From NCBI GenBank assembly GCA_965661285.1, contig CBFIDD010000002.1, forward strand, positions 128,001 to 192,000: a stretch of 64,000 bases of DNA. Direction: 5' to 3'. Both the position numbers and the translations under genes were made by a program. This document shows positions 45 to 45,625 of the stretch, in pieces (position 1 is the first letter of the stretch; each line of letters begins with the position of its first letter). The notes beneath the pieces are model-generated. The model worked only from the letters and a program-made list of their open reading frames with translations. It had not been told where the DNA came from and made no database searches. This DNA comes from Poseidonia sp. GTDB lineage: Archaea; Thermoplasmatota; Poseidoniia; Poseidoniales; Poseidoniaceae.

Positions 45-533
45 CTACCATTCGGTTTGCTCAAACTCAGACCCTTCAACCCAAGCCAGCAAATCAAGGG
101 CAACAACACACGACTCTGCCACTTCCGGCAAGGGGTCATTGACGAATTTTTGTAGCGTCGGCACCACACTTCGGTCGCCAATGGCTCCCATGGCTTCTGC
201 AGCTTCGTGTCGAACCATCACGTGTTCCTCATCGTCTTCAAGGCGGTCAACGAGCGTGGGCAGCGCTGCAGGGTTTTGCATCTGGCCAAGTACGTAGGCG
301 ATTTCGTGTCGTAAGAGCGCACTTTGACTCGAGAAGCCCTGACAGAGCGCTAAGCAAGCCTCTTCGGTTCGTTGATTCCGAAGTGCAAAGACAGCTCGCA
401 TGCGCTGAAACATCGGTTGGCTTTCATCGCACAACTGTTCGGTGAGCGTGTCCAAGACAGCAATTTGGGATGGGGGCGCTGGATCAACCGAGCCGTACTG
501 GCTCACTTGTGGTTTTCGTTCACTTGGCGTCAT
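45..533 (-). CDS. Deoxyhypusine hydroxylase-like HEAT-repeat protein (half-size, two His-Glu motifs)
   Basis: RMRAVFALRN, SALLRHEIAYVLGQMQ, MVRHEAAEAMGAIG and EVAESCVVALD match one dyad half of eukaryotic DOHH. Start overlaps the mqnD stop (ATGA). Confidence 0.8.
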   Translation of the reverse strand: MTPSERKPQVSQYGSVDPAPPSQIAVLDTLTEQLCDESQPMFQRMRAVFALRNQRTEEACLALCQGFSSQSALLRHEIAYVLGQMQNPAALPTLVDRLEDDEEHVMVRHEAAEAMGAIGDRSVVPTLQKFVNDPLPEVAESCVVALDLLAWVEGSEFEQTEW

Positions 534-1423
534 GGTTCATCCTCTGGCGCGCCGATGAATTTCATGGTGCTTGTGTCAAAATCACCTCGGATTAAGCCGA
601 GGTCTTGACCTTCTTTGATGAAACGTCGGATGGAGGCTCTTCCTTCCTCACGATAGTCAATGGTACGGTCGTTGACGTACATGCCAACAAATTCCTTGTT
701 CGTGTCGTCATCGATGCCTCGGCCCCATGCCTTTGCAAATTCCAAGGCCTCATCGGGTGATTTGAGTGCGTATTCAATGCTCATTTTGGTGTACATCGTG
801 ATGTCCTCCATCACCTTGTCGCCAAGATCACGCCGGACAACGTTTCCGCCGAGTGGCATCGGCCAGTTTGGTGTCCTGGCATTCCACCATTTTCCGAGGT
901 CTATGAGAACATCAAGGTCATGGTCAACATAGGTCAACTGACCCTCGTGAATGATGAGGCCGCTGAGGTATGTACCGTCAAGAATTCGCGGGATAATCTC
1001 ATCAAAAGGAACGACCGCAACCTCGCAGTCTCCCCAAGCCAGACGCAGGCCGAGATATGCACTTGTTTTCATGCCGGGGACGGCGATGGTGTGGCTTCTC
1101 GCTTCATCCTCTGTGACGCCGCTTTTGCAAACGATCATCGGACCGTATCCCTCGCCCATCGAAGCGCCGCAGTTCATCAGAGCATAATGTTCAGCGATGT
1201 CGGGAAAAGCATGAATAGAAACAGCCGAGACCTCGAGGTCTTGGTTCATGGCCCGGTGATTCAATGTCTCAATGTCTTGGAGTTCGTGAACAAAGTTGTA
1301 TCCCGGTGTAGGAAATGCGCCGGTGGTCATGGCGTGAAACATGAAGGCATCATCGGGGTCGGGACTGTGGCCGATTCGCACGATTTTATTGCCCGCTTCG
1401 TCGAGAGGAAGTTCAGCCACCAT
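530..1423 (-). CDS. mqnD: 1,4-dihydroxy-6-naphthoate synthase (futalosine pathway)
   Basis: GHSPDPDDAFMF, DIETLN, SMGEGYGP, IIHEGQLTY, PLGGN and MYVN motifs. Start trimmed to ATG at 1423. Confidence 0.9.
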   Translation of the reverse strand: MVAELPLDEAGNKIVRIGHSPDPDDAFMFHAMTTGAFPTPGYNFVHELQDIETLNHRAMNQDLEVSAVSIHAFPDIAEHYALMNCGASMGEGYGPMIVCKSGVTEDEARSHTIAVPGMKTSAYLGLRLAWGDCEVAVVPFDEIIPRILDGTYLSGLIIHEGQLTYVDHDLDVLIDLGKWWNARTPNWPMPLGGNVVRRDLGDKVMEDITMYTKMSIEYALKSPDEALEFAKAWGRGIDDDTNKEFVGMYVNDRTIDYREEGRASIRRFIKEGQDLGLIRGDFDTSTMKFIGAPEDEP

Positions 1424-1484
1424 GATTCCAACCACCGGTATGCCCTTCAAGAACATTCGTTTGGTCAGGCCATCAATGACTGTA

Positions 1485-2282
1485 TCAGTTCCACGCGAAT
1501 TGCGGCGTTGAATCCATGCCACATGCTGATTTCAAAAACCGGAACAAACCGTCCAGATGATGTTGATTGAGACGGTTAAACACCTCGCCATAATACTGGT
1601 CCAATCGTTCGTAGGTAAGACCTGATTTTTCCATGGACCACTGAATCACAGCCTCGCGCTTTGCGGCTTGAGATTCAAAGCCCTCAAGATTCGAAAGAAG
1701 GGCTGCATGTGCACGCTGAAGGGCCTCGATTGGCGTGTCTTTTCGGGCGACAAAAACGCCGAAAATCATCGGCAATCCCTCTTGTTGCATCCATGCAGTG
1801 CCAAGGTCCATTTGAACCATCTCGGGAAACTCGCGGGCGGCTTCAAGTGCGCGATCTCCGATGAGCAACGCACCATCGGCGATCTTCATCATGGAGTCGT
1901 AATCCGGACCCATGGAGACATAGTTCATCGCCCTCCCTTGTTGTGAGATGAGATGTTTCAGCAACGCCACCGATGTGGCTGAATCGCTGGGTAGCGCAAT
2001 GGTCTGCATCTTTGAGAGCGGGACGGCGCCGAAGAGGAGCACGCTCCCGACTTCGCCTTGGCTCCCGATGCCGATATCAGGCAAGAGGACCAATTCATTG
2101 GCGTGCTTGGCGTAGTCTGCTGCGGGTATGGGTGCCAGAATGCAATCTCTGCGAAGAACGTGGCCGGTGAGCCAAGACGGTGGGGCGGACAAGACCTTCC
2201 AACGTGTGTCGAGTTTGTGATACAACGGGTCGCAATTGATGAACGCCACCCGTCCGAGCGTGTTCGTCCAAGTATCAGCCAT
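1485..2282 (-). CDS. mqnA: Chorismate dehydratase (futalosine pathway)
   Basis: GRVAFINCDPL, GEVGSVLL, SATSVAL, LLIGDRAL, DLGTAW and LPMIFGVF motifs; lies between mqnE and mqnD. Confidence 0.9.
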   Translation of the reverse strand: MADTWTNTLGRVAFINCDPLYHKLDTRWKVLSAPPSWLTGHVLRRDCILAPIPAADYAKHANELVLLPDIGIGSQGEVGSVLLFGAVPLSKMQTIALPSDSATSVALLKHLISQQGRAMNYVSMGPDYDSMMKIADGALLIGDRALEAAREFPEMVQMDLGTAWMQQEGLPMIFGVFVARKDTPIEALQRAHAALLSNLEGFESQAAKREAVIQWSMEKSGLTYERLDQYYGEVFNRLNQHHLDGLFRFLKSACGMDSTPQFAWN

Positions 2283-2287
2283 GCGTA

Positions 2288-3499
2288 TCATCCTTGGGCC
2301 ATTGGCAGGGTGCGTCGTGTAGGCGGTGGTGGTGGCGTGTATTCCTCAAATTGTGAATACGTGGTGTTTCGCTGAATGGGTGAGCATCCAGCATCGTAAA
2401 TCAGGCGTGAAAGTTTGGTGCGGTCGTGGTCAAGGGGGGCTGTCGAACCTGCCAAATGCATGATGGATTCCTTCTGAACCGTACCGTCGATATCATCCGC
2501 CCCAAATTGGAGGGCCAACTCGGCAAGATGATCGCCGATGTTCATGCGATAAGCCTTGATGTGCGGTATGTTGTTCAACATCAAGCGAGAAACGGCGATG
2601 GTGCGGAGCACTTCTGTTCCGGTCGCTAACTGCGCTTCGGGGAGTCGCGTATGGTCGGGCAGGAACGGGTAGGGCACGAAACATTGGAATCCACGGGTTT
2701 CTTCATTGAGAGAGCGCAGGGAAATCATGTGTTGGAGGCGCTGTTCAAGATGTTCGATTGTGCCAAAAAGCATGGTGCAATTTGATGGCAGTCCGACCTC
2801 GTGAGCCTCTCGATGAATCTGGAGGTATTCATTAGAACTTTCTTTTCCGTTACAGATGTGTGCCCGCACCTCGTCATCGAGAATCTCTGCACCGCCACCC
2901 GGCAAAGACGTCAAACCTGCTGCTTTGAGACGGGTGAGAACTTCCTTTGTTGAAATGGAGGATTTCTGTGAGAGATGTTTGATTTCAACAGCGGTAAGGG
3001 CTTTGATGGAAATGTGCGGAAATTTCTCTTTGGTTGCTGCAAAAAGCCCTTCGTAGTGTTCCACACCCCAATCGGGGTGAAGGCCTCCCACAGAGTGAAC
3101 TTCGTCAACAGCGTGAGCGTATTGGTCCAAGTCGGCAAGGTATTGCTCAACCGACATGGCGTAGGCATCATCGGCTTTTGGACCGCGGCGAAACGCGCAG
3201 AACTTACACGCTAAGACACAGATGTTCGTCTGGTTGACGTGGACGTTGGAGTTGAAAAATGCGCGCAAGCCAAATCGAGCTTTGCGGACACAGTGAGCAA
3301 GCGCACCGAGTTCATGGAGGTCTGGATGTGTGTAGAGTATCATACCATCAGCAAGGCTAAGCGGCTCATTTCGGACCAATTTCTCAACGATGGGTTGGAG
3401 CGCAGGCGACCATGATGTTGATGCGATGTTTTCGGCAAGGTTGTCAAGCCAGTGCGCGGCTTCACCAGCAAGCGGTGCAGGCTGGAGAGAAGGAGCCAT
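2288..3499 (-). CDS. mqnE: Aminofutalosine synthase, radical SAM (MqnE; CofH/MqnC family)
   Basis: NQTNICVLACKFCAF (CX3CX2C), VGGLHP, SLPGGGAEI and HIKAY; mqn gene context. Confidence 0.8.
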   Translation of the reverse strand: MAPSLQPAPLAGEAAHWLDNLAENIASTSWSPALQPIVEKLVRNEPLSLADGMILYTHPDLHELGALAHCVRKARFGLRAFFNSNVHVNQTNICVLACKFCAFRRGPKADDAYAMSVEQYLADLDQYAHAVDEVHSVGGLHPDWGVEHYEGLFAATKEKFPHISIKALTAVEIKHLSQKSSISTKEVLTRLKAAGLTSLPGGGAEILDDEVRAHICNGKESSNEYLQIHREAHEVGLPSNCTMLFGTIEHLEQRLQHMISLRSLNEETRGFQCFVPYPFLPDHTRLPEAQLATGTEVLRTIAVSRLMLNNIPHIKAYRMNIGDHLAELALQFGADDIDGTVQKESIMHLAGSTAPLDHDRTKLSRLIYDAGCSPIQRNTTYSQFEEYTPPPPPTRRTLPMAQG

Positions 3500-8718: not shown

Positions 8719-9543
8719 ATGACAACCATAACCGAACTTGAAGAACTTGCGCGAAGATGTCGCGTCCACATCGTCAACATGGTCCACCGTGCCCAAGCTG
8801 GCCACCCCGGTGGTTCACTCTCCGAAATCGACCTCTTGGCGGCGCTCTACAAAACCACGCTACGCGCCAAACCAGACCAGCCTGATTGGGAGGACCGAGA
8901 CCGATTCATTCTCTCCAAAGGCCATGCCTCACCCGGCATGTATGCCATCCTCGCCGAGATGGGGTTCATCAGCGTTGAGGACCTCGAATCGTACAGGGTA
9001 CTCGGTGGCGTGTGTCAGGGTCATGTGGACATGAAATGGTGCCCAGGCGTGGATTTCTCTGCAGGTTCACTCGGCATGGGCCTCTCGTTTGGCATGGGCT
9101 CGGCCATCGCAGGCCGCCTTGAAGGCAGCGAGCGTCAAGTCTACGTCATGCTCGGCGATGGGGAAATCCAAGAGGGAAGCGTTTGGGAAGCGGCCATGGC
9201 CGCAAGGCACCATGAACTTGGCAACTTGAACGTGATTCTTGACCGAAACCGAATTCAAAACGATGACTTTTGTGAAGCCCAAATGCGCATGTTTGACATC
9301 CCAGCAAAATGGAAGGCCTTCGGATGGAATGTGAAGGAAATTGACGGCCACAACATGGAGGAAATCGTCGACGGATTGAACTTCCTGCAACATTCAAACG
9401 ACGGCCCCTCCATCCTGATCGCTCATACCGTAAAGGGGCACGGCGTTTCCTTCATGGCCGACAATCCAGCCTTCCACGGTGCCGCACCCAATGACGAACA
9501 ATACGCTCAAGCCATGGCTGAACTCGGCGAGGTGGTCGCATGA
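8719..9543 (+). CDS. Transketolase, N-terminal subunit
   Basis: GHPGGSLS, DRFILSKGH, GSLGMG and the TPP motif GDGE...N. Confidence 0.93.
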   Translation: MTTITELEELARRCRVHIVNMVHRAQAGHPGGSLSEIDLLAALYKTTLRAKPDQPDWEDRDRFILSKGHASPGMYAILAEMGFISVEDLESYRVLGGVCQGHVDMKWCPGVDFSAGSLGMGLSFGMGSAIAGRLEGSERQVYVMLGDGEIQEGSVWEAAMAARHHELGNLNVILDRNRIQNDDFCEAQMRMFDIPAKWKAFGWNVKEIDGHNMEEIVDGLNFLQHSNDGPSILIAHTVKGHGVSFMADNPAFHGAAPNDEQYAQAMAELGEVVA

Positions 9544-10478
9544 GTAAGATGGCCGCCACCCGAGACGGGTACGGCGAGGCGCTCCTCGAACTTGCTTCCA
9601 ACCCCAAGGTTGTTGTCCTTGAAGCCGACCTCGGCAAGTCCACCAAGTCGCTTCACTTTCGCAAAGCCCATCCCGAACGAACCGTATCCTGCGGCATTGG
9701 TGAGCAAAACATGCTCCTCGTGGGCGCAGGCCTTGCGGCTTCGGGCTACATTCCATTTGCCAGCACCTTCGCCATCTTTACCGAGCGTGCCTTTGAACAG
9801 ATGCGAAACGGTGTTGCCAGGCCGAATCTTGCTGTCCATGTCTGTGGAAGCCACGGAGGAACGCATACGGGGACCGACGGGTCATCTGCACAATCCATTG
9901 AGGATCTCGCCATTTACCGCACCCTGCCCAACGTCATTGTCCTGCACCCAAGCGATATTGTTTCCACCAAAGTACTGACGATGCAACTGGCCGAAACCGG
10001 ATCACCCTCCTACACGCGCACAGCACGAAACAAGACGCCCGTCTTGTACGAAGGTCGCGAAACTGAAATTGAAATCGGCAAAGGCGTGATTCTGAAAGAA
10101 GGTACGGACGTTGCCATCATCGCCTGCGGCGTCATGGTTTCCCAGTCTCTTGAGGCAGCAGAGGCACTCGCTTCAGAAGGCATCAACGCCACGATTGTTG
10201 ACATGCACACCTTGAAGCCGCTCGACGGAGACCTCGTCAACCGCCTGGTGGAATCCTGCGGTGCGATCGTTACCGCAGAGGACCACAGCGTTATCGGGGG
10301 CCTTGGTGGAGCTGTCGCCGAACACTTGACGGCGAACACGTACGCCCCACTGGAGCGCGTGGGCGTTCAGGACCGATTCGGCGAGTCCGGTCAAGCCGAC
10401 GAGATGCTCGAAGTCATGCAAATTTCTGCACCCTACATCGCAGAGGCTGCGAAGCGAGCCATCGCTCGTAAGGGCTGA
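9540..10478 (+). CDS. Transketolase, C-terminal subunit
   Basis: ATRDGYG, GIGEQNM, EDHSVIGGLG and FGESG; ATGA overlap with the N-terminal subunit. Confidence 0.93.
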   Translation: MSKMAATRDGYGEALLELASNPKVVVLEADLGKSTKSLHFRKAHPERTVSCGIGEQNMLLVGAGLAASGYIPFASTFAIFTERAFEQMRNGVARPNLAVHVCGSHGGTHTGTDGSSAQSIEDLAIYRTLPNVIVLHPSDIVSTKVLTMQLAETGSPSYTRTARNKTPVLYEGRETEIEIGKGVILKEGTDVAIIACGVMVSQSLEAAEALASEGINATIVDMHTLKPLDGDLVNRLVESCGAIVTAEDHSVIGGLGGAVAEHLTANTYAPLERVGVQDRFGESGQADEMLEVMQISAPYIAEAAKRAIARKG

Positions 10479-10535
10479 GAACACCGCAACGTCCTCGGGG
10501 GAGAGTTCATAGAACCTCTTCATTGAACAGGGCTC

Positions 10536-11195
10536 ATGGAGTTCTTCCTTGACACCGCAGACGTTGACGAAATCAGAGAAATCGCCGCATGGGGCATCCT
10601 CGACGGCGTGACAACCAACCCGTCCCTCATCAAAAAATCCGGAAGGGATTTCAAGGAAGTTGTACGCGAAATCGCCGGCATTTGCTCAGGCCCAATTTCC
10701 GCCGAAGTCACCGCCATGGACACGCCTGGAATGGTGGAACAAGGGCGCGCACTCAAGGCAGAGCTGCCTGACAATGTCATCATCAAGATTCCATGCACGC
10801 CAGAAGGACTCGCAGCAACCAAAATTTTGACCGAAGACGGCATTGACACCAATGTCACGCTCATCTTCTCCGCATCACAAGCCCTGATGGCGGCCAAAGC
10901 CGGTGCTACCTACGTCTCCCCGTTCATCGGACGCATCGACGACACCGGCCACGACGGCATGGAACTCATCGCTGAGATCATGAACACCTGGGCCAATTAC
11001 AACCTCGACACGAAAGTGCTTGCTGCCTCTGTGCGTCACCCAACTCACGTGCTCCAGTGCATCCAACTGGGCGCACACACGGCGACCATGCCCGCCAAGA
11101 CCTTCCGCCAACTCATGAGCCATCCGCTGACCGACCGTGGACTCGAAGGCTTCATGCGCGATTGGGCCGAAGTCGAAAAGGCTGGCAAAGCGTGA
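10536..11195 (+). CDS. tal: Transaldolase (fructose-6-phosphate aldolase family)
   Basis: [13 protein letters not shown], Schiff-base [19 protein letters not shown] and HPLTD. Confidence 0.92.
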
Positions 11196-11227: not shown

Positions 11228-11770
11228 TTATTTGCCGTGAGAAAACGCCACCAAATCATCGATAGGGAGATGATCGGCTGTGTCCCTACAATAGTGGGCC
11301 TTCACCACCGTACCGGATTCGTCAATCAGTATGTCAGCTGGAATGGTCGAAAGTTTGGAGACAGAGAGGGTCAAGGGAACATAACCTCGCATGGTTGCTT
11401 GAAGGAGGGTTAACGGGGACTTTGCAGCACCAAAAACGAATTTCCCAAAGGATTTCCGGATGCCGTTGTTGAGGAAGTGCTCGTAGGTTTCATCGGCTAC
11501 GATGGTGAACGGAGCGCTGTGCTTCTTCATACGCTTGGCCAATTCGTCAACACCCGCATCAAAAACACCCACCATCACGGCGTCCTTGCTAAACTCGTCC
11601 CACCGCTGAACAATTCTTCTGATTCTCATGTTGCACAATGGACAAGATGAAAATCGAAAGAAGGTGAGAATCACGCGCTTCCCTTTAACCTTGGACAGGT
11701 CAAAGACGGAACCGTCGATAGCGGGCAGGACAAGGTTTGGTGCAGAAGTGCCAGCAACAAGTCGTGTCAT
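11228..11770 (-). CDS. Peroxiredoxin-like AhpC/TSA redoxin
   Basis: FFRFSSCPLC CxxC motif in a thioredoxin fold; PADILIDESG. Confidence 0.75.
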   Translation of the reverse strand: MTRLVAGTSAPNLVLPAIDGSVFDLSKVKGKRVILTFFRFSSCPLCNMRIRRIVQRWDEFSKDAVMVGVFDAGVDELAKRMKKHSAPFTIVADETYEHFLNNGIRKSFGKFVFGAAKSPLTLLQATMRGYVPLTLSVSKLSTIPADILIDESGTVVKAHYCRDTADHLPIDDLVAFSHGK

Positions 11771-11859
11771 GTAGTGAGCATCCTTGGCTCTTTAATCACC
11801 CTTCCTATTGTTGCGACCATCAGCCCCGGGGCCGGTGCACGAAGCCATGTTCTTTTTCC

Positions 11860-12885
11860 CTAGCGAGAAGCGAGCGTGAGGTTCTTCCACATCTCTTCTG
11901 GAACCTCCATGGCGAGTCGAAGACCGCCCATGGCGCCCAAACGGACGGGGTCGTCAACCACGTGAACGTTCACGTCGCCCATGTCGGAAAGGCGTCGCTC
12001 AATGAGGGCTCCAAGGCCCTTGATGGAGGAACCGCCGCCGGCGAGGACCATGTTCTTGCGGAACTCGTCGTGGTATTCGGGGTTGGACTCGGCGATGAGC
12101 TTCTTGACGTTCTCCACGATAGGGTCAACGATGGATTCGCAGGCGCGCTGCATGCAATCGGTGATGTCGAGGGTCATGGCCTTGCCTTCGATGGAAAAGT
12201 CAACCAGCACAGGCTCGTCAGGAGCGGCGGTGGACACGAAGGAGAACTGCTCTTTCCAGCGTCGGGCCATGTCCTTGGTGATTTGAGCACCGTTGTACTT
12301 GGACTGGATTTCCTTGATGAGTTGGTTGTCGACGAAGTCGCCAGCGTGTCCGGTGTGCATCTGGTCGCCAGGTCCGGGGATGGTTCCGTAGACACGGCAA
12401 AGGTCAGTAGTACCAGCGCCGATGTCAATGACGAGGGTGTGGGTGATCATATCAAGCGCGTAAGCGACAGCAAACGGCTCGGAGATGATCATGGCGGAGT
12501 TCACAGAGCCTGCGGCTGCGTCAAAAATGGCCGTTTTGTCAACGTGGCTGGCTTCAGCGGGCGCACCGATGACGGCGACCACACGGTCGTATTCCTCTGG
12601 GTCGGAAAGACCGATGAGGTGTGTGATGAAGTGAGCGATGAATTCGCGGTCTTCAAGAGTATCCTTGATGACGCCGAGTTCGAGCGGACGGAAGAGATTC
12701 AGTGCGAGGCGGTTCTTCAGCGCTTCATTGCCAAAAAGCACATCTCGCTTCAAGAAGTTGCGTGCAATAGGGTCCTTTGGCGTACCGATGACCGTCAATT
12801 CTTCCACTTCGTGGCTGTCGGAGGAGACCATCACCGAGCGGAAGGTTCCCAAGTCGATTCCAATATACAACACGTCGTTTGCCAT
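11860..12885 (-). CDS. Actin-like ATPase, MamK/salactin-like
   Basis: IGIDLGT, SEPFAVAY, IDIGAGTTD, KEQFSFV and LAGGGS. Closer to MamK (PKD, GTxPGPxDQ, KEQFSFV) than to canonical MreB. Confidence 0.88.
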   Translation of the reverse strand: MANDVLYIGIDLGTFRSVMVSSDSHEVEELTVIGTPKDPIARNFLKRDVLFGNEALKNRLALNLFRPLELGVIKDTLEDREFIAHFITHLIGLSDPEEYDRVVAVIGAPAEASHVDKTAIFDAAAGSVNSAMIISEPFAVAYALDMITHTLVIDIGAGTTDLCRVYGTIPGPGDQMHTGHAGDFVDNQLIKEIQSKYNGAQITKDMARRWKEQFSFVSTAAPDEPVLVDFSIEGKAMTLDITDCMQRACESIVDPIVENVKKLIAESNPEYHDEFRKNMVLAGGGSSIKGLGALIERRLSDMGDVNVHVVDDPVRLGAMGGLRLAMEVPEEMWKNLTLASR

Positions 12886-13007
12886 AGGCGTAACCGTCTT
12901 TCGGATACCGCTTCACTTTATGAAGAGTCCCCACCATCATGATTGGCAAGGGTGTACGAACGCCATCCCCGGCCTTCTATAGAACACTGAATGAGGGGCG
13001 CAAATAC

Positions 13008-14024
13008 TCAACACCAGGCCTCGCAAGCATGGCAATACCATGCGGCATGCTCCACATACATCTCGGCCATACCACCGCAATCTGTGCATTCCTTCAGGGT
13101 ATTTTCCCCGCAGATATCCACCACCATTTGGACGTGATAGGCTTCGTCGATCTTAAGTTGTTCCCGCATGGCCCAAAGCAGTTGATCTTCGCTTGGAGAA
13201 ATGATGCCGTCTTCAAGCACCATCTCAACCACGTTGCGGTAGTCTTGGATGGTTGAGAAGTCACGGTGGTCAAGGACCACACCGCCTTTTTCGGCCACGA
13301 TGTCCGTGCCACCGGGGTCGTCTACAAAGATCACGAAGGACGCTGGTTTGAGACTGTCATCTCGCAACTCAAAGGAAATCCGTGCACCGTCCAGGTTGGC
13401 GTAGACGAGTTTGGATGAGCGGTTGATGACGTTGGTGATCGAACGTGCGGTGGTTTCAGCGTTTGGTCCACGCTTCCAACCGGTTGGGCTTCGTTCGTTG
13501 TAGGCATAGAACTCCGTCCCTTTCCCGGGATATTCAAGACGAATTTCTTCTCCACCGTCAAAACCGTTGGAGACGATGGTGATGGCGGCGACTTCGGTTG
13601 AAAGGATGTTATCGTCGTCATCAAAGCTGATCATCAGCGGCTTGCGTTCCTCGGCCGCAGCGTTGTAGTGACCCTGCATGCCGCTCATCCATTTGTCTTC
13701 AAGCCGCTTGAGGGTTTGCTCTTGTTCTCCCGTGAGGTTCTTATCGATGCCGAGCACATTCGCGAGTTCACCTGCGGCCATCTCTTGTTTGAATTGCTCA
13801 ATTTTCTCAGCGTCTCTCCTGTGTGTCGGGGGCTGGATGCGCTTGCGTTCTTCTTTGTAGTTCGGGTCAGCCCACTCGTGGCCACATGAACCGCATTGAA
13901 GGTACCCCTTCATCGTCGAATCTTGAGCATCGCCACCGCATCGCGGACAATCACCATCTTCGTTGTAACCAAGGTTGGATTTGGCTTCCTCACGCCCTTT
14001 CCTCATGCCACCAAAGCCTGCCAT
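13008..14024 (-). CDS. Hypothetical protein: N- and C-terminal Zn ribbons, coiled segment, TerB-like helical domain
   Basis: CPRC..CGSC at the N-terminus, CTDC..WYCHAC at the C-terminus, and YRNVVEMVLEDGIISPSE..LL..MREQLKI. Confidence 0.7.
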   Translation of the reverse strand: MAGFGGMRKGREEAKSNLGYNEDGDCPRCGGDAQDSTMKGYLQCGSCGHEWADPNYKEERKRIQPPTHRRDAEKIEQFKQEMAAGELANVLGIDKNLTGEQEQTLKRLEDKWMSGMQGHYNAAAEERKPLMISFDDDDNILSTEVAAITIVSNGFDGGEEIRLEYPGKGTEFYAYNERSPTGWKRGPNAETTARSITNVINRSSKLVYANLDGARISFELRDDSLKPASFVIFVDDPGGTDIVAEKGGVVLDHRDFSTIQDYRNVVEMVLEDGIISPSEDQLLWAMREQLKIDEAYHVQMVVDICGENTLKECTDCGGMAEMYVEHAAWYCHACEAWC

Positions 14025-14061: not shown

Positions 14062-14892
14062 TTAGTCGTGAATGGTTCGTGCTTTGAGCCCGTACCTCAC
14101 CAAACCCTCTTGGCCGTAGAGTCGGCGGAACACCAACTCCATTTGGGCATCCATTTCGAACGTCGTGTCCTCATCATCAACGGTCAAGAAGACACCACTG
14201 GGGCCGTCTTCGAGGCTGAGGAGCACCGTGCTCATACCACCAAGAATCGGGGCACGTAGAGAAAATTCTGACGGCGCACCTGCAGCAGACAGGGTGGTCC
14301 ATGTTTGAATCGAACCGCGTCGCTGAAGGTTAACGCTGGCGGTGTTGGTTCCGTTCACCATGTGGGAAAATCGGGGCGGCCAAATGATGTCATCGTCGGC
14401 TGACTGTGCGTGAAGTTGCAGCCGTGATGATGCGGCCTCCTCGTATTGTGCCCGAGAGACATAGGCCCCTTGACTCACGTGAGCCTCGGAGAGTTCCTGA
14501 GTCCATGCGGCTTCAATGGCTTCATTGAAGGCTGGATCGACTTCAACCTCCAGGGCAACCTGAGCGATTTCAACGTCAGCACCTTTCTTCGCAACGACGA
14601 TGATCGCTTGGTCGCTCATCAAGACCTCCCAAGGTGATTCACCTTCGCTGTCATCATCGTGAATCGATACCCCCGTCGCAGCGCTAAGGCTGAGGTCGTC
14701 TATTCCATCAGGGACGGAAATGGAGGCGATCTCATCGTGATTTATTCGGTGGAGCAAACCGGCGACAGCAAGCGTGGTCGCATCGCTATCGGCACCAAAC
14801 ACCCGCACACCGTTGAGAACAAACGGAGATTGAACCACGGTGTAGGTCGACTCGTGATGAAGCACATAGCCCATCCACACTTCTGTTGACAT
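14062..14892 (-). CDS. DUF35/OB-fold thiolase partner with N-terminal extension
   Basis: WPPR, GSIQTWTTL, GAPSEF, VFRRLY and YGLK OB-fold motifs. Start overlaps the thiolase stop. Confidence 0.75.
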   Translation of the reverse strand: MSTEVWMGYVLHHESTYTVVQSPFVLNGVRVFGADSDATTLAVAGLLHRINHDEIASISVPDGIDDLSLSAATGVSIHDDDSEGESPWEVLMSDQAIIVVAKKGADVEIAQVALEVEVDPAFNEAIEAAWTQELSEAHVSQGAYVSRAQYEEAASSRLQLHAQSADDDIIWPPRFSHMVNGTNTASVNLQRRGSIQTWTTLSAAGAPSEFSLRAPILGGMSTVLLSLEDGPSGVFLTVDDEDTTFEMDAQMELVFRRLYGQEGLVRYGLKARTIHD

Positions 14893-16061
14893 CAGCGTTC
14901 CCTCCCGAACACGTGTACAGAACATGTGGCGCCGGAGCCGCCAACGTTGTGCGTCAGTGCATGCTCCGCATCTCGAACTTGACGGTTGGTGTCTGCTTGG
15001 CCGCGAAGTTGTTTGAACACCTCGACCACTTGCCCGGTCCCGGTTGCACCGAGGGGATGTCCTTTGGATTTCAGGCCTCCACTTGAGTTCACCGTGGTGG
15101 TTCCTTGGTTGAGGCGGCCTTCACCCTCTCGCGCAAAGCGCCCGCCCTCTCCACGTTGAGCAAACCCGAGGTCCTCTGTCGCAAGGACTTCAGCGATGGT
15201 GAAGCAGTCATGGACCTCTGCGACATCGATTTGGCGCGGCGTGAGTCCTGCCATGGCGTAGGCCTTGGAGGAGGCGGTTTGGGTGGCTTTGAGTTGGGTG
15301 ATGCTCGGGCGGTCATGGAGGGCAAGGTTATCCGAAGCGGCACCAGCTCCTTTGACCCAAACGGGTGTATCGGTGAACTTCTGAGCGATGTGGTCGGCGG
15401 CCAAGACCACGCATGAAGCACCATCTGAGGTCGGACAGCAATCGTACAGCGTCAGCGGGTCGGCCACCATGAACCCACCGGCTGCCTTTTCGAAACTGAC
15501 TTCTTTTTGGATGTGGGCGTCCTTGTTCATGGACCCGTGGAGGTGGTTCTTCACGCTGACATGGACCAAGTCATCGTGGGTTGCGTCAAATTCGTGAAAG
15601 TAACGACGGGCCATAAGCGCGTAGGTGCCTGGAAACGTCAACCCGGCCAAACGCTCCCATTCTGTGTCGCCCGATACGCCAAGCCAGTAGCGTTTTCGTT
15701 CGGGCGTGAGGTCGTTCATTTTCTCAATCCCACCGGCGACGACAACATCCGCTTGACCGCTCTTGATGGCCATCCAGGCGTCCCGGAACGCAAAACCAGA
15801 GGAAGCACATGCGTTCTCGACCCTACGGACCGCCACCCCTTCCATGCCCGAATGTTCGGTGAGCAAGGCGGCGGTGTTGCCAAGTTGCGACCCACCAAAG
15901 GCGATGCTACCAATGAACGCTTCATCAACGGTCGCAGGGTCAAAATCGCCATCAATGCTGGCGAAGGCCTTGGAGGCCGCTTCAGCCCACATGCCTTTGA
16001 GACCGAGCGGGTGATTTCCGAACTTTGTTTGGCCAGCACCGACGACGGCGACATCCACCAT
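14892..16061 (-). CDS. Archaeal acetyl-CoA acetyltransferase (thiolase)
   Basis: VENACASS, DCCPTSDGA, AEVHDCF, GHPLGATG and HNVGG. Confidence 0.92.
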   Translation of the reverse strand: MVDVAVVGAGQTKFGNHPLGLKGMWAEAASKAFASIDGDFDPATVDEAFIGSIAFGGSQLGNTAALLTEHSGMEGVAVRRVENACASSGFAFRDAWMAIKSGQADVVVAGGIEKMNDLTPERKRYWLGVSGDTEWERLAGLTFPGTYALMARRYFHEFDATHDDLVHVSVKNHLHGSMNKDAHIQKEVSFEKAAGGFMVADPLTLYDCCPTSDGASCVVLAADHIAQKFTDTPVWVKGAGAASDNLALHDRPSITQLKATQTASSKAYAMAGLTPRQIDVAEVHDCFTIAEVLATEDLGFAQRGEGGRFAREGEGRLNQGTTTVNSSGGLKSKGHPLGATGTGQVVEVFKQLRGQADTNRQVRDAEHALTHNVGGSGATCSVHVFGRER

Positions 16062-16168
16062 GAAGAGACGAGGAGGACGAGGCATTTCATACCCCCGCAT
16101 CGTTTGCCATCAAGACCGAAGGATTCACGCAACCCAGCCCGTAGGGTTCTTGAACAGGTCGCACCCGC

Positions 16169-24185: not shown

Positions 24186-24347
24186 CATCATCACCTCATT
24201 GAAGCATTTCGCCGACTTGCCGCCCCTATTTAATCAAATCCCTTTGGCCTACCGAATCAGAGGCGGCGTCGTTTGATTTGCAACAATCCACAAACCCTCT
24301 CACCATCCATGAACAACATTCAAACAACGGGTCTCTGTGGCAGGGCC

Positions 24348-25619
24348 ATGGCCTTCCGAGACCACTTGGCTGCAGCAACGGTGGAAACCTCCCCGGTGAG
24401 TCTCGTTCACGGGATGCTTCACCACTCACGGGGTACAGGCCACGCGATGACCGTCTTTGAAAACATCCCCGAATGCCCCGGGCACCGTGCAGCGGTGAAC
24501 ATGCTCACTCGAGACCGCCTTTGTGCAGCCATTGGCATTGAGCCGGAGGCGTACATTGACACGCTGGGTTGGGCGATGAGCCACCCGTCGACGCCGGTTG
24601 TTGTTGAAAAGGATGAAGCCGCTTGCTTCGAAAACACCGTGACCGACGTTGACCTCGGTACCATCCCCATCCCGCACCACTGGCCCCAAGACCGTGGACG
24701 CTACTCCTCTGCAAGCATCATCATCGCCCAGGACAGCGGCATACGAAACGTCTCCTTCCACCGTCAGTTCCTCCGCGATGAAAACCACCTCGTGGTCCGG
24801 TTGGTCCCCCGTCATTTGCGCACCATGGTCACCAACGCCCGAAAAGAAGGACGTGAGGTCAACGTGGCCGTCGTGAACGCCCCCGACCCTGTGGTGCTTC
24901 TCGCTGCGGCTATGTCGTTCAACGAAAACATCGACGAGTTAACCATTGCAGCCGCACTTCACGAGAAACTCTACGGCCGCCAACTGAAATTGGTTGAACT
25001 CCCAAACGGCGTTCACGTCCCAGCCGATGCAGAATATGTCTGGTGGGGCAGAATCACTCTCGACGATGACGATGAGGGCCCGTATGTTGACATCACGGGT
25101 ACCGTTGACGATGTTCGTCAGGAGCCAGTGATTGAAATCGACGGTTTAATTCATAGAGACAACCCCATCTTCCACGCCCTGATTCCGGGCGAAGCCGAAC
25201 ACAAGACCCTCATGGGACTGCCCCGTGCCCCCACCATCAAAGCGGCCGTCAACGACGTGGTGGAGTGTTTGGATGTTCACATGACCGAAGGCGGTTGTGG
25301 CTGGTTGGGTGCTGTCCTCAAGATACGGAAGCGCCACCAAGACGACGGCATGAAGGCGATCAAGGCGGCCTTTGACGGCCACAAAAGCATGAAGATCGTG
25401 ACCGTCGTTGACGAGGACATTGACATCACCGACCCCGTTCGAGTGGAGTGGGCGATGATGACGCGATGGCAGCCGGACAAAGACACCTTGATTTTGAGCG
25501 ACCAGCGAGGAAGTTCCCTTGACCCGTCGAGGTACGACGACGGCCGAACGTCAAAAATCGGCTACGACGCCACCATTGACTTTGGTGTTGATCGCGAGGG
25601 CTTCATGTCCGTGCAGTGA
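24348..25619 (+). CDS. UbiD family prFMN-dependent decarboxylase (probable anhydromevalonate phosphate decarboxylase)
   Basis: NVSFHR, VPADAE, EGPYVDITG, VVDEDID, GSSLDPS and KIGYDAT. Confidence 0.85.
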   Translation: MAFRDHLAAATVETSPVSLVHGMLHHSRGTGHAMTVFENIPECPGHRAAVNMLTRDRLCAAIGIEPEAYIDTLGWAMSHPSTPVVVEKDEAACFENTVTDVDLGTIPIPHHWPQDRGRYSSASIIIAQDSGIRNVSFHRQFLRDENHLVVRLVPRHLRTMVTNARKEGREVNVAVVNAPDPVVLLAAAMSFNENIDELTIAAALHEKLYGRQLKLVELPNGVHVPADAEYVWWGRITLDDDDEGPYVDITGTVDDVRQEPVIEIDGLIHRDNPIFHALIPGEAEHKTLMGLPRAPTIKAAVNDVVECLDVHMTEGGCGWLGAVLKIRKRHQDDGMKAIKAAFDGHKSMKIVTVVDEDIDITDPVRVEWAMMTRWQPDKDTLILSDQRGSSLDPSRYDDGRTSKIGYDATIDFGVDREGFMSVQ

Positions 25620-36499: not shown

Positions 36500-36709
36500 T
36501 CAGCCGAGTAGGCGAATGACCGTTCCCGTGATGGCAGCCACGATGAGAAGAAGCACCATCATCGCCACTGGGCCGTACTGGTTCTTGTCATCGAGGGCCG
36601 TACCGATAAAACCGTCTCGCTTGATGGCTTCAAAAAAACTTCCAGCTTCCTCAAACTGAGGGGGCTCTCGGCGCGGAATGCGTTCCCCTTTGCGAACTTC
36701 ACCAGCCAT
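36500..36709 (-). CDS. Small protein with C-terminal TM (tail-anchor topology)
   Basis: Polar N-terminus and one C-terminal hydrophobic helix. Confidence 0.55.
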   Translation of the reverse strand: MAGEVRKGERIPRREPPQFEEAGSFFEAIKRDGFIGTALDDKNQYGPVAMMVLLLIVAAITGTVIRLLG

Positions 36710-36795
36710 GATTCGCCCAGAGGGGCGGGGGTCATAGCCCTTGCGAAGACCATCCTCGCCGCAAGCCTCATTCACCGATGCCCAAACCATAGGCT

Positions 36796-44800: not shown

Positions 44801-45491
44801 ACATGCCCCAACCGTAGTCGCCCTTCATGAGGATGAACTGATTTGACTCGACATGGTAGGGGTGAACCCATGCTGATAGTTCGAGATGGGTGATGTTGGT
44901 CATGTCCAAATCGTCGTTGTGGTCGAGCACAACATGGTCGTAAGCACCGTCAAACCGCAGAGCATAATCGGCTCCCGGTCCGATTTCTACCACGCCGTAC
45001 ACCGGGAAGTACTGAGGGTCGTTTTCCAAATCGTTCCATGTGCCGGGGTCAATGTTGCCCATGTTGGTGCTGGCGATGTGGACAAAGTGTTCGTCTCCGC
45101 CTTCTGACGGTTGTGCTTCACCCCAGTTTCTGTACAAAAACGGCGTTCCGTCATGCCATCGATAGGCACCCTCGTTGGTTGCATCCGATAATCCGGTCCA
45201 CAGGTGTCGGGATTGATTGTCCCACGAAGCAAAGGTATCGAAGAGCCAGGTGTTTTCCTGTTCGTCGTCAACAGTCACCAAAAAGCCGTTCAACGAACGG
45301 GCATACGACGCCGCATCTTCCCATGACGATGCAGTCAAGAGGTGGTAGGTGTTGTTGTTGGCGGGATTGATAGCGGTGTGCAAGACGGTCATGCCTTCCT
45401 CGTCTGCTGGGTCTTCCGCAGCAACGGGCGCAGCGAGCGGTGAGGCAAGACTCAAGAGAAACAAGCCAACGAGCCAAAGGGCGTTCTTCAT
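41883..45491 (-). CDS. Large acidic membrane-anchored surface protein (C-type lectin, LamG, PPC repeats, EF-hand-like, TSP3-like, TM, cytoplasmic tail)
   Basis: Signal peptide; WTGL..EG.YRW.DG..NW..WND (CTLD); LSAWV/WSHV (LamG); PGLYYI and PGWWYI (PPC); DQNNDGILD; DGDGVPD..DAFP; one TM. Confidence 0.85.
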   Translation of the reverse strand: MKNALWLVGLFLLSLASPLAAPVAAEDPADEEGMTVLHTAINPANNNTYHLLTASSWEDAASYARSLNGFLVTVDDEQENTWLFDTFASWDNQSRHLWTGLSDATNEGAYRWHDGTPFLYRNWGEAQPSEGGDEHFVHIASTNMGNIDPGTWNDLENDPQYFPVYGVVEIGPGADYALRFDGAYDHVVLDHNDDLDMTNITHLELSAWVHPYHVESNQFILMKGDYGWGMYLQGDHLAFSSEYSLSRHPISNGTVEADTWSHVQVNVVVGEGYTFHINGEEAGVIADEDASIPLGDFGSNDCFEAGLECDELYLARMGAGCDCSHFEGVLDNITVRAGASSTTMELRLHLDFPEGEGGETWDAAEEYMASIEGADWVMPDGSIVAQAVELFIGEGYDVESAAAGDTLLFFVEIGEYTRELYWTSYSLKFGDFEEMTEYTVYAQSNEIPDEWNHDTASFGEWGFVYETWSWPAEGVMWFTMILETDVDELYIELTADIADPPPTLDDMTELKESIPVTNQDVTWDSYNNGDVNMNFYYVNVTEPLADLRVRTYDGQGNVDIGISYYSPPEPTLWWDEPIGFDEDTGEKSNEETTMESWSTGPGNEEEVHLFDVEPGLYYITAYSFRNAREFTIVADFVYPPENVDPEDAITLTPGVEYGLLSGYDGLMQYFKVDVPQGTERLVVDLTDGAGEAALYMRLDQAPTTSTYDHHSTVDGADDRIAFNDPTPGWWYILLTSESAFTGVNIVAEFTDRYVWDYDGTPLELFHDEPLEGISVAKGAEVFFFAMLDAPGNVFTLEAYGGSGDITLTVEGVAYELEFTDGGGRPGPGFGMDVSTSPFDITSGKEGTNHQVTVEFPMNGRVDITMTGLSDAEEITLVARWDETELPVDPVEPGGDEEPDSVPTCVEETTSHFEDADQNNDGILDEREIKLAGFSTDDLKSVDVNMDNLVEYREALQFSCTCDAELEYVFDEFSNGRDSVSLAALQSHPWVNDYDFDLININEDDRIDRDELSLLIVVCETTYDAFDGDGDGVPDADDAFPEDPTETKDTDGDGVGDNADIVASVSNDIIYASAGALFLVLAGLLLGFLRSNRSQGTDTEVWSDENQLNEAMFGEASPPPYAKQPLDFDAATTAAANPTVSDAPILQQDEAASSLLSDLSTQDAPHHDLMGMMLDGIETVEYPTGSGSVWVRASPDLPWEPKP

Positions 45492-45625
45492 GGTAGGCAC
45501 TCGTGCGAGATTGTATTTGAATCAAATGGTAAAACGATCGGACAGACCTCCCACAGGATTTGCTGCTTTTACTGCATCGTGGGATCGTTCAAGATTTCAA
45601 ATACTGGACCATACGGCCTGCCTCC

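What the first reader, a model, noticed from the sequence alone, without database searches (positions are those of the whole stretch)
11860..12885. MamK-like actin in a genome region with no magnetosome genes
Seen: IGTPKD, SEPFAVAY, DIGAGTTDLC..GTIPGPGDQ and KEQFSFV, which track magnetosome MamK much better than MreB. No mreC/mreD or mam genes are nearby. Known: haloarchaeal salactin is a MamK-related dynamic filament linked to DNA partitioning. Inference: a filament-forming positioning or segregation actin. Its codon usage looks like that of a highly expressed gene (by eye only).
Basis: partly seen in the sequence, partly recalled or inferred. Interest (0 to 1): 0.7.

Follow-up and report, generated by a model that had tools for sequence, protein, structure and literature searches.

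The report
MamK-type actin of marine archaea
This is a real, very conserved and probably highly expressed actin-like gene of the abundant but uncultured Marine Group II ocean archaea; it is related to the bacterial magnetosome actin MamK rather than to MreB, always sits beside an unknown zinc-ribbon gene, and probably builds an uncharacterised cytoskeletal filament.

Summary
ORF 11860-12885 (-) encodes a 341-aa actin-fold ATPase whose best matches are MamK (NCBIfam 363.8 bits, cutoff 400; PDB 5ljw 8.9e-76; model TM 0.89 to the MamK filament subunit). MreB scores far lower (95 bits; 1.6e-14). The window is a chromosomal stretch of a Marine Group II archaeon (Poseidonia) with no mam, mreC or mreD genes.

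New findings:
- The protein is not a magnetosome MamK, BeeR, salactin or MreB. It belongs to a separate Poseidoniales clade.
- That clade holds two paralogues, A (this gene) and B (46% identical, encoded elsewhere).
- The nearest relatives outside it are long coiled-coil-actin fusions, two of them named from KSB1 bacteria (weakly supported).
- An orphan 338-aa double zinc-ribbon gene lies directly upstream in 78 of 78 informative loci.
- A TATA-like box upstream of the actin is present in 78 of 78 loci.
- Codon bias is the highest of 51 non-reference genes, and the protein changes least among the six genes compared.

Best reading: an abundant ATP-dependent filament, with the zinc-ribbon protein as adaptor or regulator. 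Polymerisation, binding and cargo are inferred, not shown. The databases call it "rod shape-determining protein", yet MGII cells are cocci. It is a new variant of a known kind, of moderate to good interest.

The parts
11860..12885 (-). Actin paralogue A: a 341-aa MamK-superfamily actin-fold ATPase of Poseidoniales
   Evidence: ORF. NCBIfam MamK 363.8 bits (cutoff 400), BeeR 212.7, MreB 95, salactin 60. PDB MamK 8.9e-76. AF2 pLDDT 90.5. Foldseek best hit 5ljv MamK filament, TM 0.89/0.93. D11, G13, E136, D154, G156, T159 and G283-285 conserved. 75-98% identical across Poseidoniales.
12915..12924 (-). Conserved TATA-like box (TTCATAAAGT, preceded by GG.A), about 30-39 nt upstream of the actin ATG; the likely archaeal promoter of the actin gene itself
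   Evidence: Near-invariant block in an otherwise variable spacer (alignment A3). The motif TT[CG][AT]TAA[AGC][GC]T is present within 70 nt upstream in 78 of 78 loci, with its start at a median of -39. It occurs once in the 64-kb window. Promoter function is inferred.
12975..12984 (.). 10-bp palindrome TTCTATAGAA between the partner's stop codon and the actin promoter; a candidate operator or terminator-associated element of unknown role
   Evidence: Unique in the 64-kb window, with 0.03 matches expected by chance. TTCTATAG is present within 200 nt upstream of the actin in 57 of 78 loci at a median of -102, and only 8 times elsewhere in 1.07 Mb of loci.
13008..14024 (-). Orphan 338-aa partner gene: N-terminal and C-terminal CxxC...CxxC zinc ribbons flanking a conserved alpha/beta core and a helical region
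   Evidence: Directly upstream on the same strand in 78 of 80 loci; the 2 misses are loci cut off at the actin start. The pair stays together in L075-L080, where the other neighbours are rearranged. Spacer 95-160 nt. 303 homologues; the 120 listed are 65-93% identical, every organism name shown is Poseidoniales/Thermoplasmatota-type, and none has a Pfam family other than a zinc ribbon. Invariant C26, C29, C47, C313, C316, C331, C334. AF2 pLDDT 68. No meaningful PDB fold match, TM at most 0.23.

Best explanation
The gene encodes one of two paralogous actins specific to Marine Group II archaea (order Poseidoniales). They belong to the MamK/BeeR branch of the actin superfamily. I propose that it binds and hydrolyses ATP and polymerises into cytoplasmic filaments with MamK-like longitudinal contacts. 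It is made in large amounts from its own BRE/TATA promoter. The lineage-specific double zinc-ribbon protein encoded directly upstream would act as its adaptor or assembly regulator, in the way that MamJ, ParR or arcadins serve their actins. The system would be a housekeeping cytoskeleton that organises or positions cell contents in a small, wall-less coccoid cell. It would not be a magnetosome track or a guide for wall synthesis. Shown: identity, fold, intact active site, phylogenetic position, gene pairing, conserved promoter-like element, codon bias and strong purifying selection. Inferred: polymerisation, high expression, physical contact with the partner, and the cellular role.
For: Family and fold. 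Active-site and nucleotide-binding residues are conserved across 80 family members. The model is closest to the polymerised MamK subunit 5ljv (TM 0.89/0.93, rmsd 2.1). Relatives on both sides are known polymers: MamK filament entries 5ljv and 5jyg, and BeeR, which polymerises with ATP (PMC11929497, passages). Constraint: median non-synonymous difference 0.060 against 0.13-0.38 for five neighbouring genes, and dN/dS 0.024 in the 42 of 80 comparisons with unsaturated dS. Median protein identity is 91.8%, against 44-81% for those five neighbours. Abundance proxy: CAI rank 1 of 51 non-reference genes, plus a TATA-like box in 78 of 78 loci. Partner: adjacency in 78 of 78 informative loci, and it is the only adjacency that survives the rearrangement in L075-L080; the partner family was found only in the same lineage. 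There is no N-terminal amphipathic helix or other extension, because the first strand starts at residue 5, so any link to membrane or cargo would need an adaptor. Not MreB-like biology: an archaeal host with no mreCD and coccoid cells of about 0.7 um (PMC6864105, passages).
Against: No experiment or complex prediction supports polymerisation or partner binding. The window protein, like the 3 other paralogue-A proteins compared, carries Asp at the position aligned to MamK A278, and A278D is the non-polymerising MamK mutant of PDB 5ljw. That column is hypervariable, with D or E also in 3 of 11 core-clade MamK rows and 7 of 14 BeeR-like rows, so this is a caveat only. The actin seems to have its own promoter and much stronger codon bias than the partner (CAI 0.727 against 0.588), so the two need not be co-regulated or stoichiometric. 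The other upstream neighbours are also widely conserved among these closely related genomes (thiolase in 70 of 80). All 80 loci are the best matches: 79 carry Poseidoniales-type or broader archaeal labels and one a bacterial label, and no Thalassarchaeaceae locus could be examined. The partner model is only moderately confident (pLDDT 68) and its fold says nothing about function. CAI rests on a reference set of only four genes.
Confidence: 0.5

Rival explanations
1. It is a DNA-segregation machine of the ParMRC, Alp7 or salactin kind. The actin filament pushes or pulls chromosomes or extrachromosomal elements, and the zinc-ribbon protein is the DNA-binding adaptor that couples a centromere-like site to the filament.
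For: Actin plus an adjacent small adaptor gene is the architecture of ParM/ParR, AlfA/AlfB and AlpC/AlpA (abstracts listed). Zinc ribbons often bind nucleic acid; the weak hits are to TFIIB- and transposase-type ribbons. A unique conserved palindrome lies between the two genes. Salactin is MamK-related (PMC10746226, passages); its link to DNA partitioning is recalled, not seen in the passages. A weak PHROG 'partition protein' hit, 7.8e-8.
Against: There is no iteron or repeat array near the genes; the only element is a single 10-bp palindrome, present in 57 of 78 loci. The adaptor is upstream rather than downstream. The setting is chromosomal core genes, not a plasmid or virus. Codon bias as strong as that of the translation machinery fits a bulk structural protein better. 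DNA binding by the partner was not tested.
Confidence: 0.2
2. It is a canonical MreB, as the public annotation 'rod shape-determining protein MreB' says, and it guides envelope synthesis to make rod-shaped cells.
For: The best Pfam hit is MreB_Mbl, 94.2 bits. JGI and NCBI name the homologues MreB or rod shape-determining protein.
Against: Pfam has no MamK model. The NCBIfam MreB models score 95 and 86.9 bits against cutoffs of 293 and 365.75, while MamK scores 363.8. Identity to true MreB is 26-29%. In both trees three MreB sequences are separated from the whole MamK-like group by branches of 1.67 and 1.9 substitutions per site on each side of the root, with 100% support. No mreC, mreD, rodA or PBP genes are present. 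The host is an archaeon without murein (established knowledge), and MGII cells are cocci.
Confidence: 0.03
3. It is a true magnetosome MamK and reveals magnetotaxis in an archaeon.
For: The highest-scoring curated family and the closest solved structure are both MamK.
Against: It scores below the MamK family cutoff (363.8 against 400), while 18 of 76 representatives pass. It lies outside the clade that holds the highest-scoring MamKs, including the one representative named a magnetosome protein; forcing them together costs 54.6 log-likelihood units, AU p = 0.0012. No mam gene is found in 64 kb. Relatives occur in non-magnetotactic lineages: BeeR in Verrucomicrobiota, and relatives named from ANME-2, Nitrospira and KSB1.
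Confidence: 0.01
4. It is a non-polymerising actin-fold ATPase, such as a chaperone-like or regulatory protein, that has lost filament formation.
For: Native Asp at the position where A278D abolishes MamK polymerisation.
Against: The column is hypervariable and acidic in many relatives, including 7 of 14 BeeR-like rows. Extreme surface-wide conservation, high predicted expression and closest similarity to the filament-state subunit fit a polymer better.
Confidence: 0.08

Closest known systems
MamK (magnetosome actin of magnetotactic bacteria; PDB 5ljv, 5ljw, 5jyg; NCBIfam NF040964)
   Same: Closest curated family and closest solved structure (39-40% identity, TM 0.89/0.93). Same length and no N-terminal extension. 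The DIGAGTTD, SEPF and GGGS nucleotide motifs are shared, and E136 and D154 align to MamK E143 and D161. The role of those two residues in MamK ATPase mutants is recalled, not read here.
   Different: Below the family cutoff. In a separate clade, with the AU test rejecting union with the core MamK clade. Archaeal host. No magnetosome genes. A different, orphan partner gene. Asp at the A278-equivalent position.
BeeR (three-stranded tubular actin of Verrucomicrobiota; PDB 8r2n; NCBIfam NF053558)
   Same: A MamK-related actin in non-magnetotactic organisms, which is a precedent for MamK relatives with other functions. Second-best PDB hit (3.7e-43; TM 0.82).
   Different: Scores 212.7 bits against a cutoff of 530. 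BeeR forms its own clade (99/99). It lacks the 30-50-residue disordered N-terminal extension that the BeeR paper calls the family hallmark.
Long coiled-coil-linker-actin fusion proteins (523-1232 aa; two are named from candidate division KSB1 bacteria, the rest are unnamed metagenome proteins)
   Same: Nearest lineage outside Poseidoniales (44-48% identity). Also present as two paralogous subgroups.
   Different: They carry an N-terminal coiled-coil module of about 110 residues and a long disordered linker that the archaeal proteins lack. The sister relation is weakly supported (90/20). The N-terminal module is unrelated to the archaeal zinc-ribbon partner.
Salactin (haloarchaeal actin; Pfam PF25229, NCBIfam NF053533)
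   Same: An archaeal actin that its authors place nearest to MamK (PMC10746226, passages).
   Different: Only 60 bits (cutoff 400) and 51 bits (Pfam), so it is not an orthologue. It lacks the long charged N-terminal tail described for salactin.
MreB
   Same: Actin fold; this is the name given in the public annotation.
   Different: 26-29% identity, far below the family cutoffs, no mreCD context, and a coccoid archaeal host.
Actin-plus-adaptor modules (ParM/ParR, AlfA/AlfB, crenactin/arcadins, MamK/MamJ)
   Same: An actin gene invariably adjacent to a small lineage-specific gene.
   Different: The partner shows no similarity to any of these adaptors, no centromere repeats are present, and contact between the two proteins is untested.

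Membership tests
MamK (NCBIfam NF040964; magnetosome actin) | Scores at or above the curated family cutoff (400 bits) | tested here: not met
   363.8 bits. Three other MGII paralogue-A proteins score 367.5, 375 and 384, and paralogue B (P0126) scores 329.8. 18 of 76 representatives pass.
MamK (NCBIfam NF040964; magnetosome actin) | Falls inside the clade of magnetosome-associated MamKs | tested here: not met
   The core clade (P0161 at 508 bits; P0167, named 'Magnetosome protein MamK'; P0190) has 100/99 support and excludes MGII. The AU test rejects union, p = 0.0012 (the group was named after the tree was seen).
MamK (NCBIfam NF040964; magnetosome actin) | Encoded within a magnetosome gene cluster (mamAB-type genes nearby) | tested here: not met
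   No Mam-type families in the 51 ORFs scanned across the 64-kb window. The rest of the genome was not seen.
MamK (NCBIfam NF040964; magnetosome actin) | ATP-dependent assembly into two-stranded, non-staggered filaments | not testable with these tools
   Only monomer modelling was possible.
Polymerising actin-like ATPases (actin/MreB/ParM/MamK superfamily) | Actin fold with intact phosphate-1, phosphate-2 and adenosine motifs and the catalytic acidic residues | tested here: met
   AF2 pLDDT 90.5. All listed structural hits are actin-family chains or entries that contain actin. D11, G13, E136, D154, G156, T159 and G283-285 conserved.
MreB | Scores at or above the MreB family cutoffs | tested here: not met
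   PRK13927 95 bits against 293; TIGR00904 86.9 against 365.75.
MreB | Associated with mreC/mreD and the elongasome in a murein-walled rod | tested here: not met
   No such genes in the window. Archaeal host. Cells coccoid.
BeeR (NF053558) | Family cutoff of 530 bits and a disordered N-terminal extension of 30-50 residues | tested here: not met
   212.7 bits. The first beta-strand starts at residue 5. The hallmark is taken from PMC11929497.
Salactin (NF053533 / PF25229) | Family cutoff | tested here: not met
   NCBIfam 60.1 bits against 400. Pfam 51.4 bits exceeds its gathering score of 27.1 but is outscored by MreB_Mbl at 94.2 and, in NCBIfam, by MamK.
ParMRC-type segregation locus | Actin, an adjacent DNA-binding adaptor and a repeated centromere site, usually on a plasmid or prophage | tested here: inconclusive
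   An adjacent partner is present, but there is no repeat array, the context is chromosomal core genes, and DNA binding by the partner is untested.

The most novel reading that the evidence does not exclude
Marine Group II archaea run a previously undescribed two-actin cytomotive system. In this reading paralogues A and B, which arose by duplication in the Poseidoniales stem after the gene was exchanged with bacteria, form either a heteropolymer or two specialised filaments. The orphan double zinc-ribbon protein couples them to a cargo, either the nucleoid or a membrane structure. This would give one of the ocean's most abundant archaeal groups its own actin-based segregation or positioning machine, unlike MreB, MamK, crenactin, salactin or volactin systems.
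Probability: 0.25. Interest if true: 0.75.

Novelty: new variant of a known kind. Interest (0 to 1): 0.55.

Why it matters
Marine Group II archaea are among the most abundant archaea of the surface ocean, and they remain uncultured. Almost nothing is known about their cell biology. A pair of order-wide, strongly constrained and apparently highly expressed actins, with a private partner gene, would be their main candidate cytoskeleton. It would add an archaeal branch to the MamK/BeeR group, whose known members already build very different filaments. The finding also corrects a systematic misannotation, because thousands of database entries call these proteins "rod shape-determining protein MreB" although the organisms are wall-less cocci. 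Finally, it gives a concrete target, three small soluble proteins, for in vitro reconstitution without needing a culture.

Tried and rejected
1. Rosetta-stone idea. I tested whether the N-terminal extensions of the long fused relatives are homologous to the window's zinc-ribbon partner. phmmer of the partner and of the 287-aa ORF against all 150 representatives gave nothing better than E = 0.3, so I rejected this.

2. The 287-aa ORF 14062-14925 as part of the module. It travels with the thiolase when the neighbourhood is rearranged and has a weak DUF35-type OB-fold hit, so it more likely belongs with the thiolase. Rejected.

3. The downstream redoxin 11228-11770 as part of the module. It is present in only 8 of 80 loci. 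Rejected.

4. Fold of the partner. The AF2 model is moderate (pLDDT 68). Foldseek against the PDB gave only TM values of at most 0.23, to flagellin and phage-sheath domains, which is not meaningful. The ESM Atlas returned only the partner's own Thermoplasmatota clusters.

5. Complex prediction for actin plus partner was unavailable.

6. The bacterial sigma-70 and terminator scan does not apply to an archaeon, and its counts were near the shuffled expectation.

7. The plasmid collection held only canonical MreB at 26-29% identity. PADLOC and PHROGs gave only marginal hits, so there is no sign of a mobile-element or defence context.

8. Co-occurrence of paralogues A and B in one genome. Accession series from the last cluster look-up did not overlap, so this stays unresolved.

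9. Literature. Searches on 'Poseidoniales'+'actin', 'Marine Group II'+'MreB', 'archaeal actins'+'MamK', 'MamK-like'+'non-magnetotactic', a five-term MamK/MGII search and 'MamK'+'Thermoplasmat' found no paper describing this protein. The Poseidoniales phylogenomics paper PMC6461757 has no occurrence of actin, MreB or cytoskeleton in its main text. Lowe et al. 2016 on MamK structures is not held.

10. Not checked. The single genome-contig scan returned only the 80 best loci, so the neighbourhood in Thalassarchaeaceae, the neighbourhood of paralogue B and the neighbourhood of the long fusion proteins stay unchecked.
Full report
**What is there.** The minus strand of the window carries an ATG-started ORF at 11860..12885 encoding 341 residues. 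They align with the matching MamK segments. A 401-aa ORF on the opposite strand (11737..12942) is a shadow of this gene.

**Which family.**
- Pfam has no MamK model. Its best hit is MreB_Mbl (94.2 bits), followed by Salactin (51.4), Actin (34.8) and Volactin (34.0, below its cutoff).
- NCBIfam separates the families clearly: MamK 363.8 bits (cutoff 400), BeeR 212.7 (cutoff 530), MreB models 95 and 86.9 (cutoffs 293 and 365.75), salactin 60.1 (cutoff 400).
- Against PDB sequences the best hits are the three MamK entries (8.9e-76 to 1.2e-74), then BeeR 8r2n (3.7e-43), then MreB (1.6e-14).
- An AlphaFold2 model built on a 44-sequence alignment is confident (pLDDT 90.5, pTM 0.87). It superposes best on the MamK filament subunit 5ljv (TM 0.89/0.93, rmsd 2.1 A, 39% identity), then the MamK monomer, BeeR (0.82/0.79) and MreB (about 0.79/0.80).
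- The phosphate-binding and catalytic positions D11, G13, E136, D154, G156, T159 and G283-285 carry the majority residue of 80 family members, and three MreB sequences have the same residues.
- E136 and D154 align to MamK E143 and D161. The role of those two residues in MamK ATPase mutants is recalled, not read here.

So the observation, MamK-like rather than MreB-like, is confirmed.

**Whose genome.**
- Pfam annotation of 46 further ORFs shows an archaeal chromosome: exosome subunits Rrp4/41/42, L37ae, prefoldin, SBDS, TiaS, diphthamide synthase, aEF-2, S7/S12, an RFC-like AAA protein and SRP54.
- No Mam, MreC or MreD family was found. Together, the actin ORF and 50 other ORFs of at least 90 aa were scanned. 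The three ORFs at 8719-11195 were only read by eye, ORF 36500-36790 was not scanned, and the shadow ORF was left out.
- A scan of one genome per GTDB species found 175 stretches encoding relatives among 204 pattern matches. The best 80 loci are 88-98% identical to the window protein. Most are titled Poseidonia, Poseidoniaceae or Poseidoniales; the rest carry broader archaeal names (Methanobacteriota, Euryarchaeota, Thermoplasmatota). One contig is labelled Verrucomicrobiales (L018) yet has full MGII synteny, so it is probably mis-binned.
- In the 5.8-billion-protein set, the 120 best hits are 75-96% identical. They include Poseidoniaceae- and Thalassarchaeaceae-labelled proteins, and where they carry a name it is mostly 'rod shape-determining protein (MreB)' or 'hypothetical protein'.
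- MGII cells are coccoid and about 0.7 um across (PMC6864105, passages), so that name is a misnomer.

**Where it sits in the family.**
- An exhaustive HMMER search of 1.84 billion cluster representatives gave 1346 hits at E <= 1e-3 and 151 at E <= 1e-30.
- Of the 76 full-length representatives among the best 150, 18 reach the MamK cutoff and one reaches the BeeR cutoff. The window protein and three other MGII proteins (367.5-384 bits) do not reach the MamK cutoff.
- A quick ML tree (83 rows) and a careful one agree. The careful tree used 60 rows, LG+C20+F+G4 PMSF and three MreB outgroups. For it I dropped 27 long-branched or divergent representatives and added four paralogue-B rows.
- In the careful tree the MGII proteins form a clade with 100/99 support. 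Its sister (100/98) is a second MGII family represented by P0126.
- Together they group, weakly (90/20), with 14 long proteins; with P0138 added, support is 97/92.
- The highest-scoring MamKs form a separate clade (100/99). These include P0161 (508 bits), P0190, and P0167, which is named 'Magnetosome protein MamK [uncultured bacterium]' and is in fact an FtsZ-MamK fusion.
- BeeR-like proteins form another clade (99/99).
- Forcing MGII and the core MamK clade together costs 54.6 log-likelihood units (AU p = 0.0012). The caveat is that I named the group after seeing the tree.
- Named relatives in the wider clade include ANME-2/Methanosarcinales proteins, and elsewhere in the tree a Nitrospira protein.

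**A second paralogue.**
- P0126 (335 aa) is 46% identical to the window protein (154 of 338).
- It has 987 homologues. The 120 listed are 83-100% identical to it, and where they carry an organism name the source is Poseidoniaceae, Thalassarchaeaceae, Poseidoniales, Thermoplasmatota or the older euryarchaeal labels.
- Each paralogue family therefore spans both MGII families, so the duplication predates their split.
- Paralogue B is not in the window or in any of the 80 loci; tblastn found only the A gene, at 45-46% identity.
- I could not show that A and B lie in the same genome.

**The long relatives.** The 14 long proteins (523-1232 aa) have a conserved N-terminal coiled-coil module of about 110 residues by my reading, a long low-complexity linker and a C-terminal actin domain 44-48% identical to the query. 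Two of them, one from each subgroup, are named from candidate division KSB1 bacteria. The rest are unnamed metagenome proteins.

**The neighbourhood.**
- tblastn of the window's ORFs against the 80 loci shows that ORF 13008-14024 (338 aa) lies directly upstream of the actin on the same strand in 78 loci. The other two loci are cut off at the start of the actin.
- The remaining upstream genes are also widely conserved: the 287-aa ORF in 75 of 80, thiolase in 70, Tpt1 in 67.
- In L075-L080, however, the thiolase block is inverted and moved, and only the 338-aa gene stays with the actin.
- Downstream context is variable; the redoxin is present in 8 of 80.
- The 287-aa ORF travels with the thiolase and has a weak DUF35-type OB-fold hit, so it is not part of the module.

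**The partner protein.**
- It has invariant CxxC...CxxC zinc ribbons at both ends and a strongly conserved core.
- It has 303 homologues. The 120 listed are 65-93% identical, and every organism name shown is Poseidoniales/Thermoplasmatota-type.
- It has no curated family beyond the ribbon, and its Atlas look-alikes are only its own Thermoplasmatota clusters.
- It shows no similarity to the N-terminal modules of the long fusion proteins.
- Its model is moderate (pLDDT 68) and matches nothing meaningful in the PDB (TM at most 0.23).

**Expression signals.**
- The spacer between the partner's stop codon and the actin ATG is 95-160 nt long (median 125) and variable, apart from two elements.
- The first is a TATA-like box, TT[CG][AT]TAA[AGC][GC]T, preceded by GG.A. 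It starts a median of 39 nt before the ATG and is present in 78 of 78 loci. In the window it lies at 12915-12924. If it is a TATA box, the transcript has a leader of only a few nucleotides.
- The second is the palindrome TTCTATAG(AA) at a median of -102. It is present in 57 of 78 loci and occurs only 8 times elsewhere in 1.07 Mb of loci. In the window it lies at 12975-12984 and occurs nowhere else in the 64 kb.
- No repeat array of the centromere kind is present.
- With EF-2, S7, S12 and L37ae as reference, the actin has the highest CAI of the 51 other genes (0.727; Nc 39.9; GC3 0.716). The partner is average (0.588, rank 19 of 55).
- The actin is also the slowest-evolving of the six genes compared. 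Its median non-synonymous difference to the 80 loci is 0.060, against 0.13-0.38 for the others. Its dN/dS is 0.024 in the 42 comparisons with unsaturated dS.

**A caveat on polymerisation.** PDB 5ljw is titled 'MamK non-polymerising A278D mutant'. The window protein, and all four MGII paralogue-A proteins compared, have Asp at the aligned position, D273. The column is hypervariable: D or E occurs in 3 of 11 rows of the core MamK clade, 7 of 14 BeeR-like rows and 3 of 14 long forms. BeeR polymerises (PMC11929497, passages). I therefore treat this as a point to test, not as evidence against filaments.

**Interpretation.**
- Shown: a MamK-superfamily actin-fold ATPase with an intact active site. 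It belongs to a Poseidoniales-specific clade with two paralogues, is chromosomal, is invariably paired with an orphan zinc-ribbon gene, carries a conserved promoter-like element, and is strongly biased in codon usage and strongly constrained.
- Inferred: that it polymerises, is abundant, works with the partner, and serves intracellular organisation in a small wall-less coccus.
- I rate this reading at about 0.5.
- A ParMRC-like DNA-segregation role with the partner as DNA adaptor is the main rival (0.2).
- Loss of polymerisation (0.08), canonical MreB (0.03) and magnetosome MamK (0.01) are unlikely.

**What is known.** MamK-related actins outside magnetotactic bacteria have precedents. BeeR is described as closest to MamK and present in non-magnetotactic Verrucomicrobiota. 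Salactin's authors place it nearest to MamK. Six searches of the held library and the main text of the Poseidoniales phylogenomics paper turned up no description of an actin in MGII archaea. Subscription papers and the salactin supplements (closed) could not be checked. I therefore class the finding as a new variant of a known kind. It matters mainly because it gives a tractable entry into the cell biology of a very abundant uncultured archaeal group, and because it corrects a widespread misannotation.

Noticed in passing
not in the window; proteins P0126 and P0420-P0538: Poseidoniales carry a second, equally conserved MamK-like actin paralogue (334-336 aa, 46% identical to the window's). It is encoded elsewhere in the genome; its neighbourhood is unknown, and so is whether it co-occurs with paralogue A in one genome.
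   Followed up: partly
proteins P0124, P0125, P0127-P0137, P0139: A family of 523-1232-aa proteins joins a conserved N-terminal coiled-coil module and a long disordered linker to a C-terminal MamK-like actin. It forms two paralogous subgroups, and the only named members are from candidate division KSB1 bacteria. As far as I could see it is undescribed.
   Followed up: partly
protein P0167: A 768-aa protein named 'Magnetosome protein MamK [uncultured bacterium]' is a fusion of a full FtsZ (TIGR00065, 351.5 bits) and a MamK domain (446 bits).
   Followed up: no
window 12975-12984: The perfect palindrome TTCTATAGAA is unique in the 64 kb. It is conserved about 100 nt upstream of the actin in 57 of 78 loci and is rare elsewhere (8 occurrences in 1.07 Mb). 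Its role as operator, terminator element or something else is unknown.
   Followed up: partly
locus L018 (NZEQ01000006.1): A contig labelled 'Verrucomicrobiales bacterium isolate ARS100' carries the actin at 96% identity and the complete MGII gene order. It is probably an archaeal contig binned into a bacterial MAG.
   Followed up: no
window 14062-16100 (-): A thiolase is overlapped at its 3' end by a 287-aa ORF with only a marginal DUF35-type OB-fold hit. This may be a divergent, enlarged DUF35 partner of the archaeal thiolase/HMG-CoA synthase system. It is poorly conserved (median 44% identity).
   Followed up: partly
window 530-3499 (-): Two VitK2_biosynth (MqnA/MqnD-type) genes and a radical-SAM CofH/MqnC-type gene lie together, suggesting the futalosine route to menaquinone in this archaeon. 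A UbiD-family decarboxylase lies at 24273-25619.
   Followed up: no
window 11737-12942 (+): A 401-aa open frame lies antisense to the actin gene. It is a shadow ORF, and gene callers could mis-call it.
   Followed up: yes
window 41883-45500 (-) and 46402-51684 (-): Two very large genes: a 1205-aa protein with C-type lectin and PPC domains, probably a surface protein, and a 1760-aa Lhr-type helicase.
   Followed up: no
window 12067-12069 (codon for D273 of the actin): Native Asp at the position where the engineered A278D change makes Magnetospirillum MamK non-polymerising. It is invariant in the four MGII paralogue-A proteins compared.
   Followed up: partly
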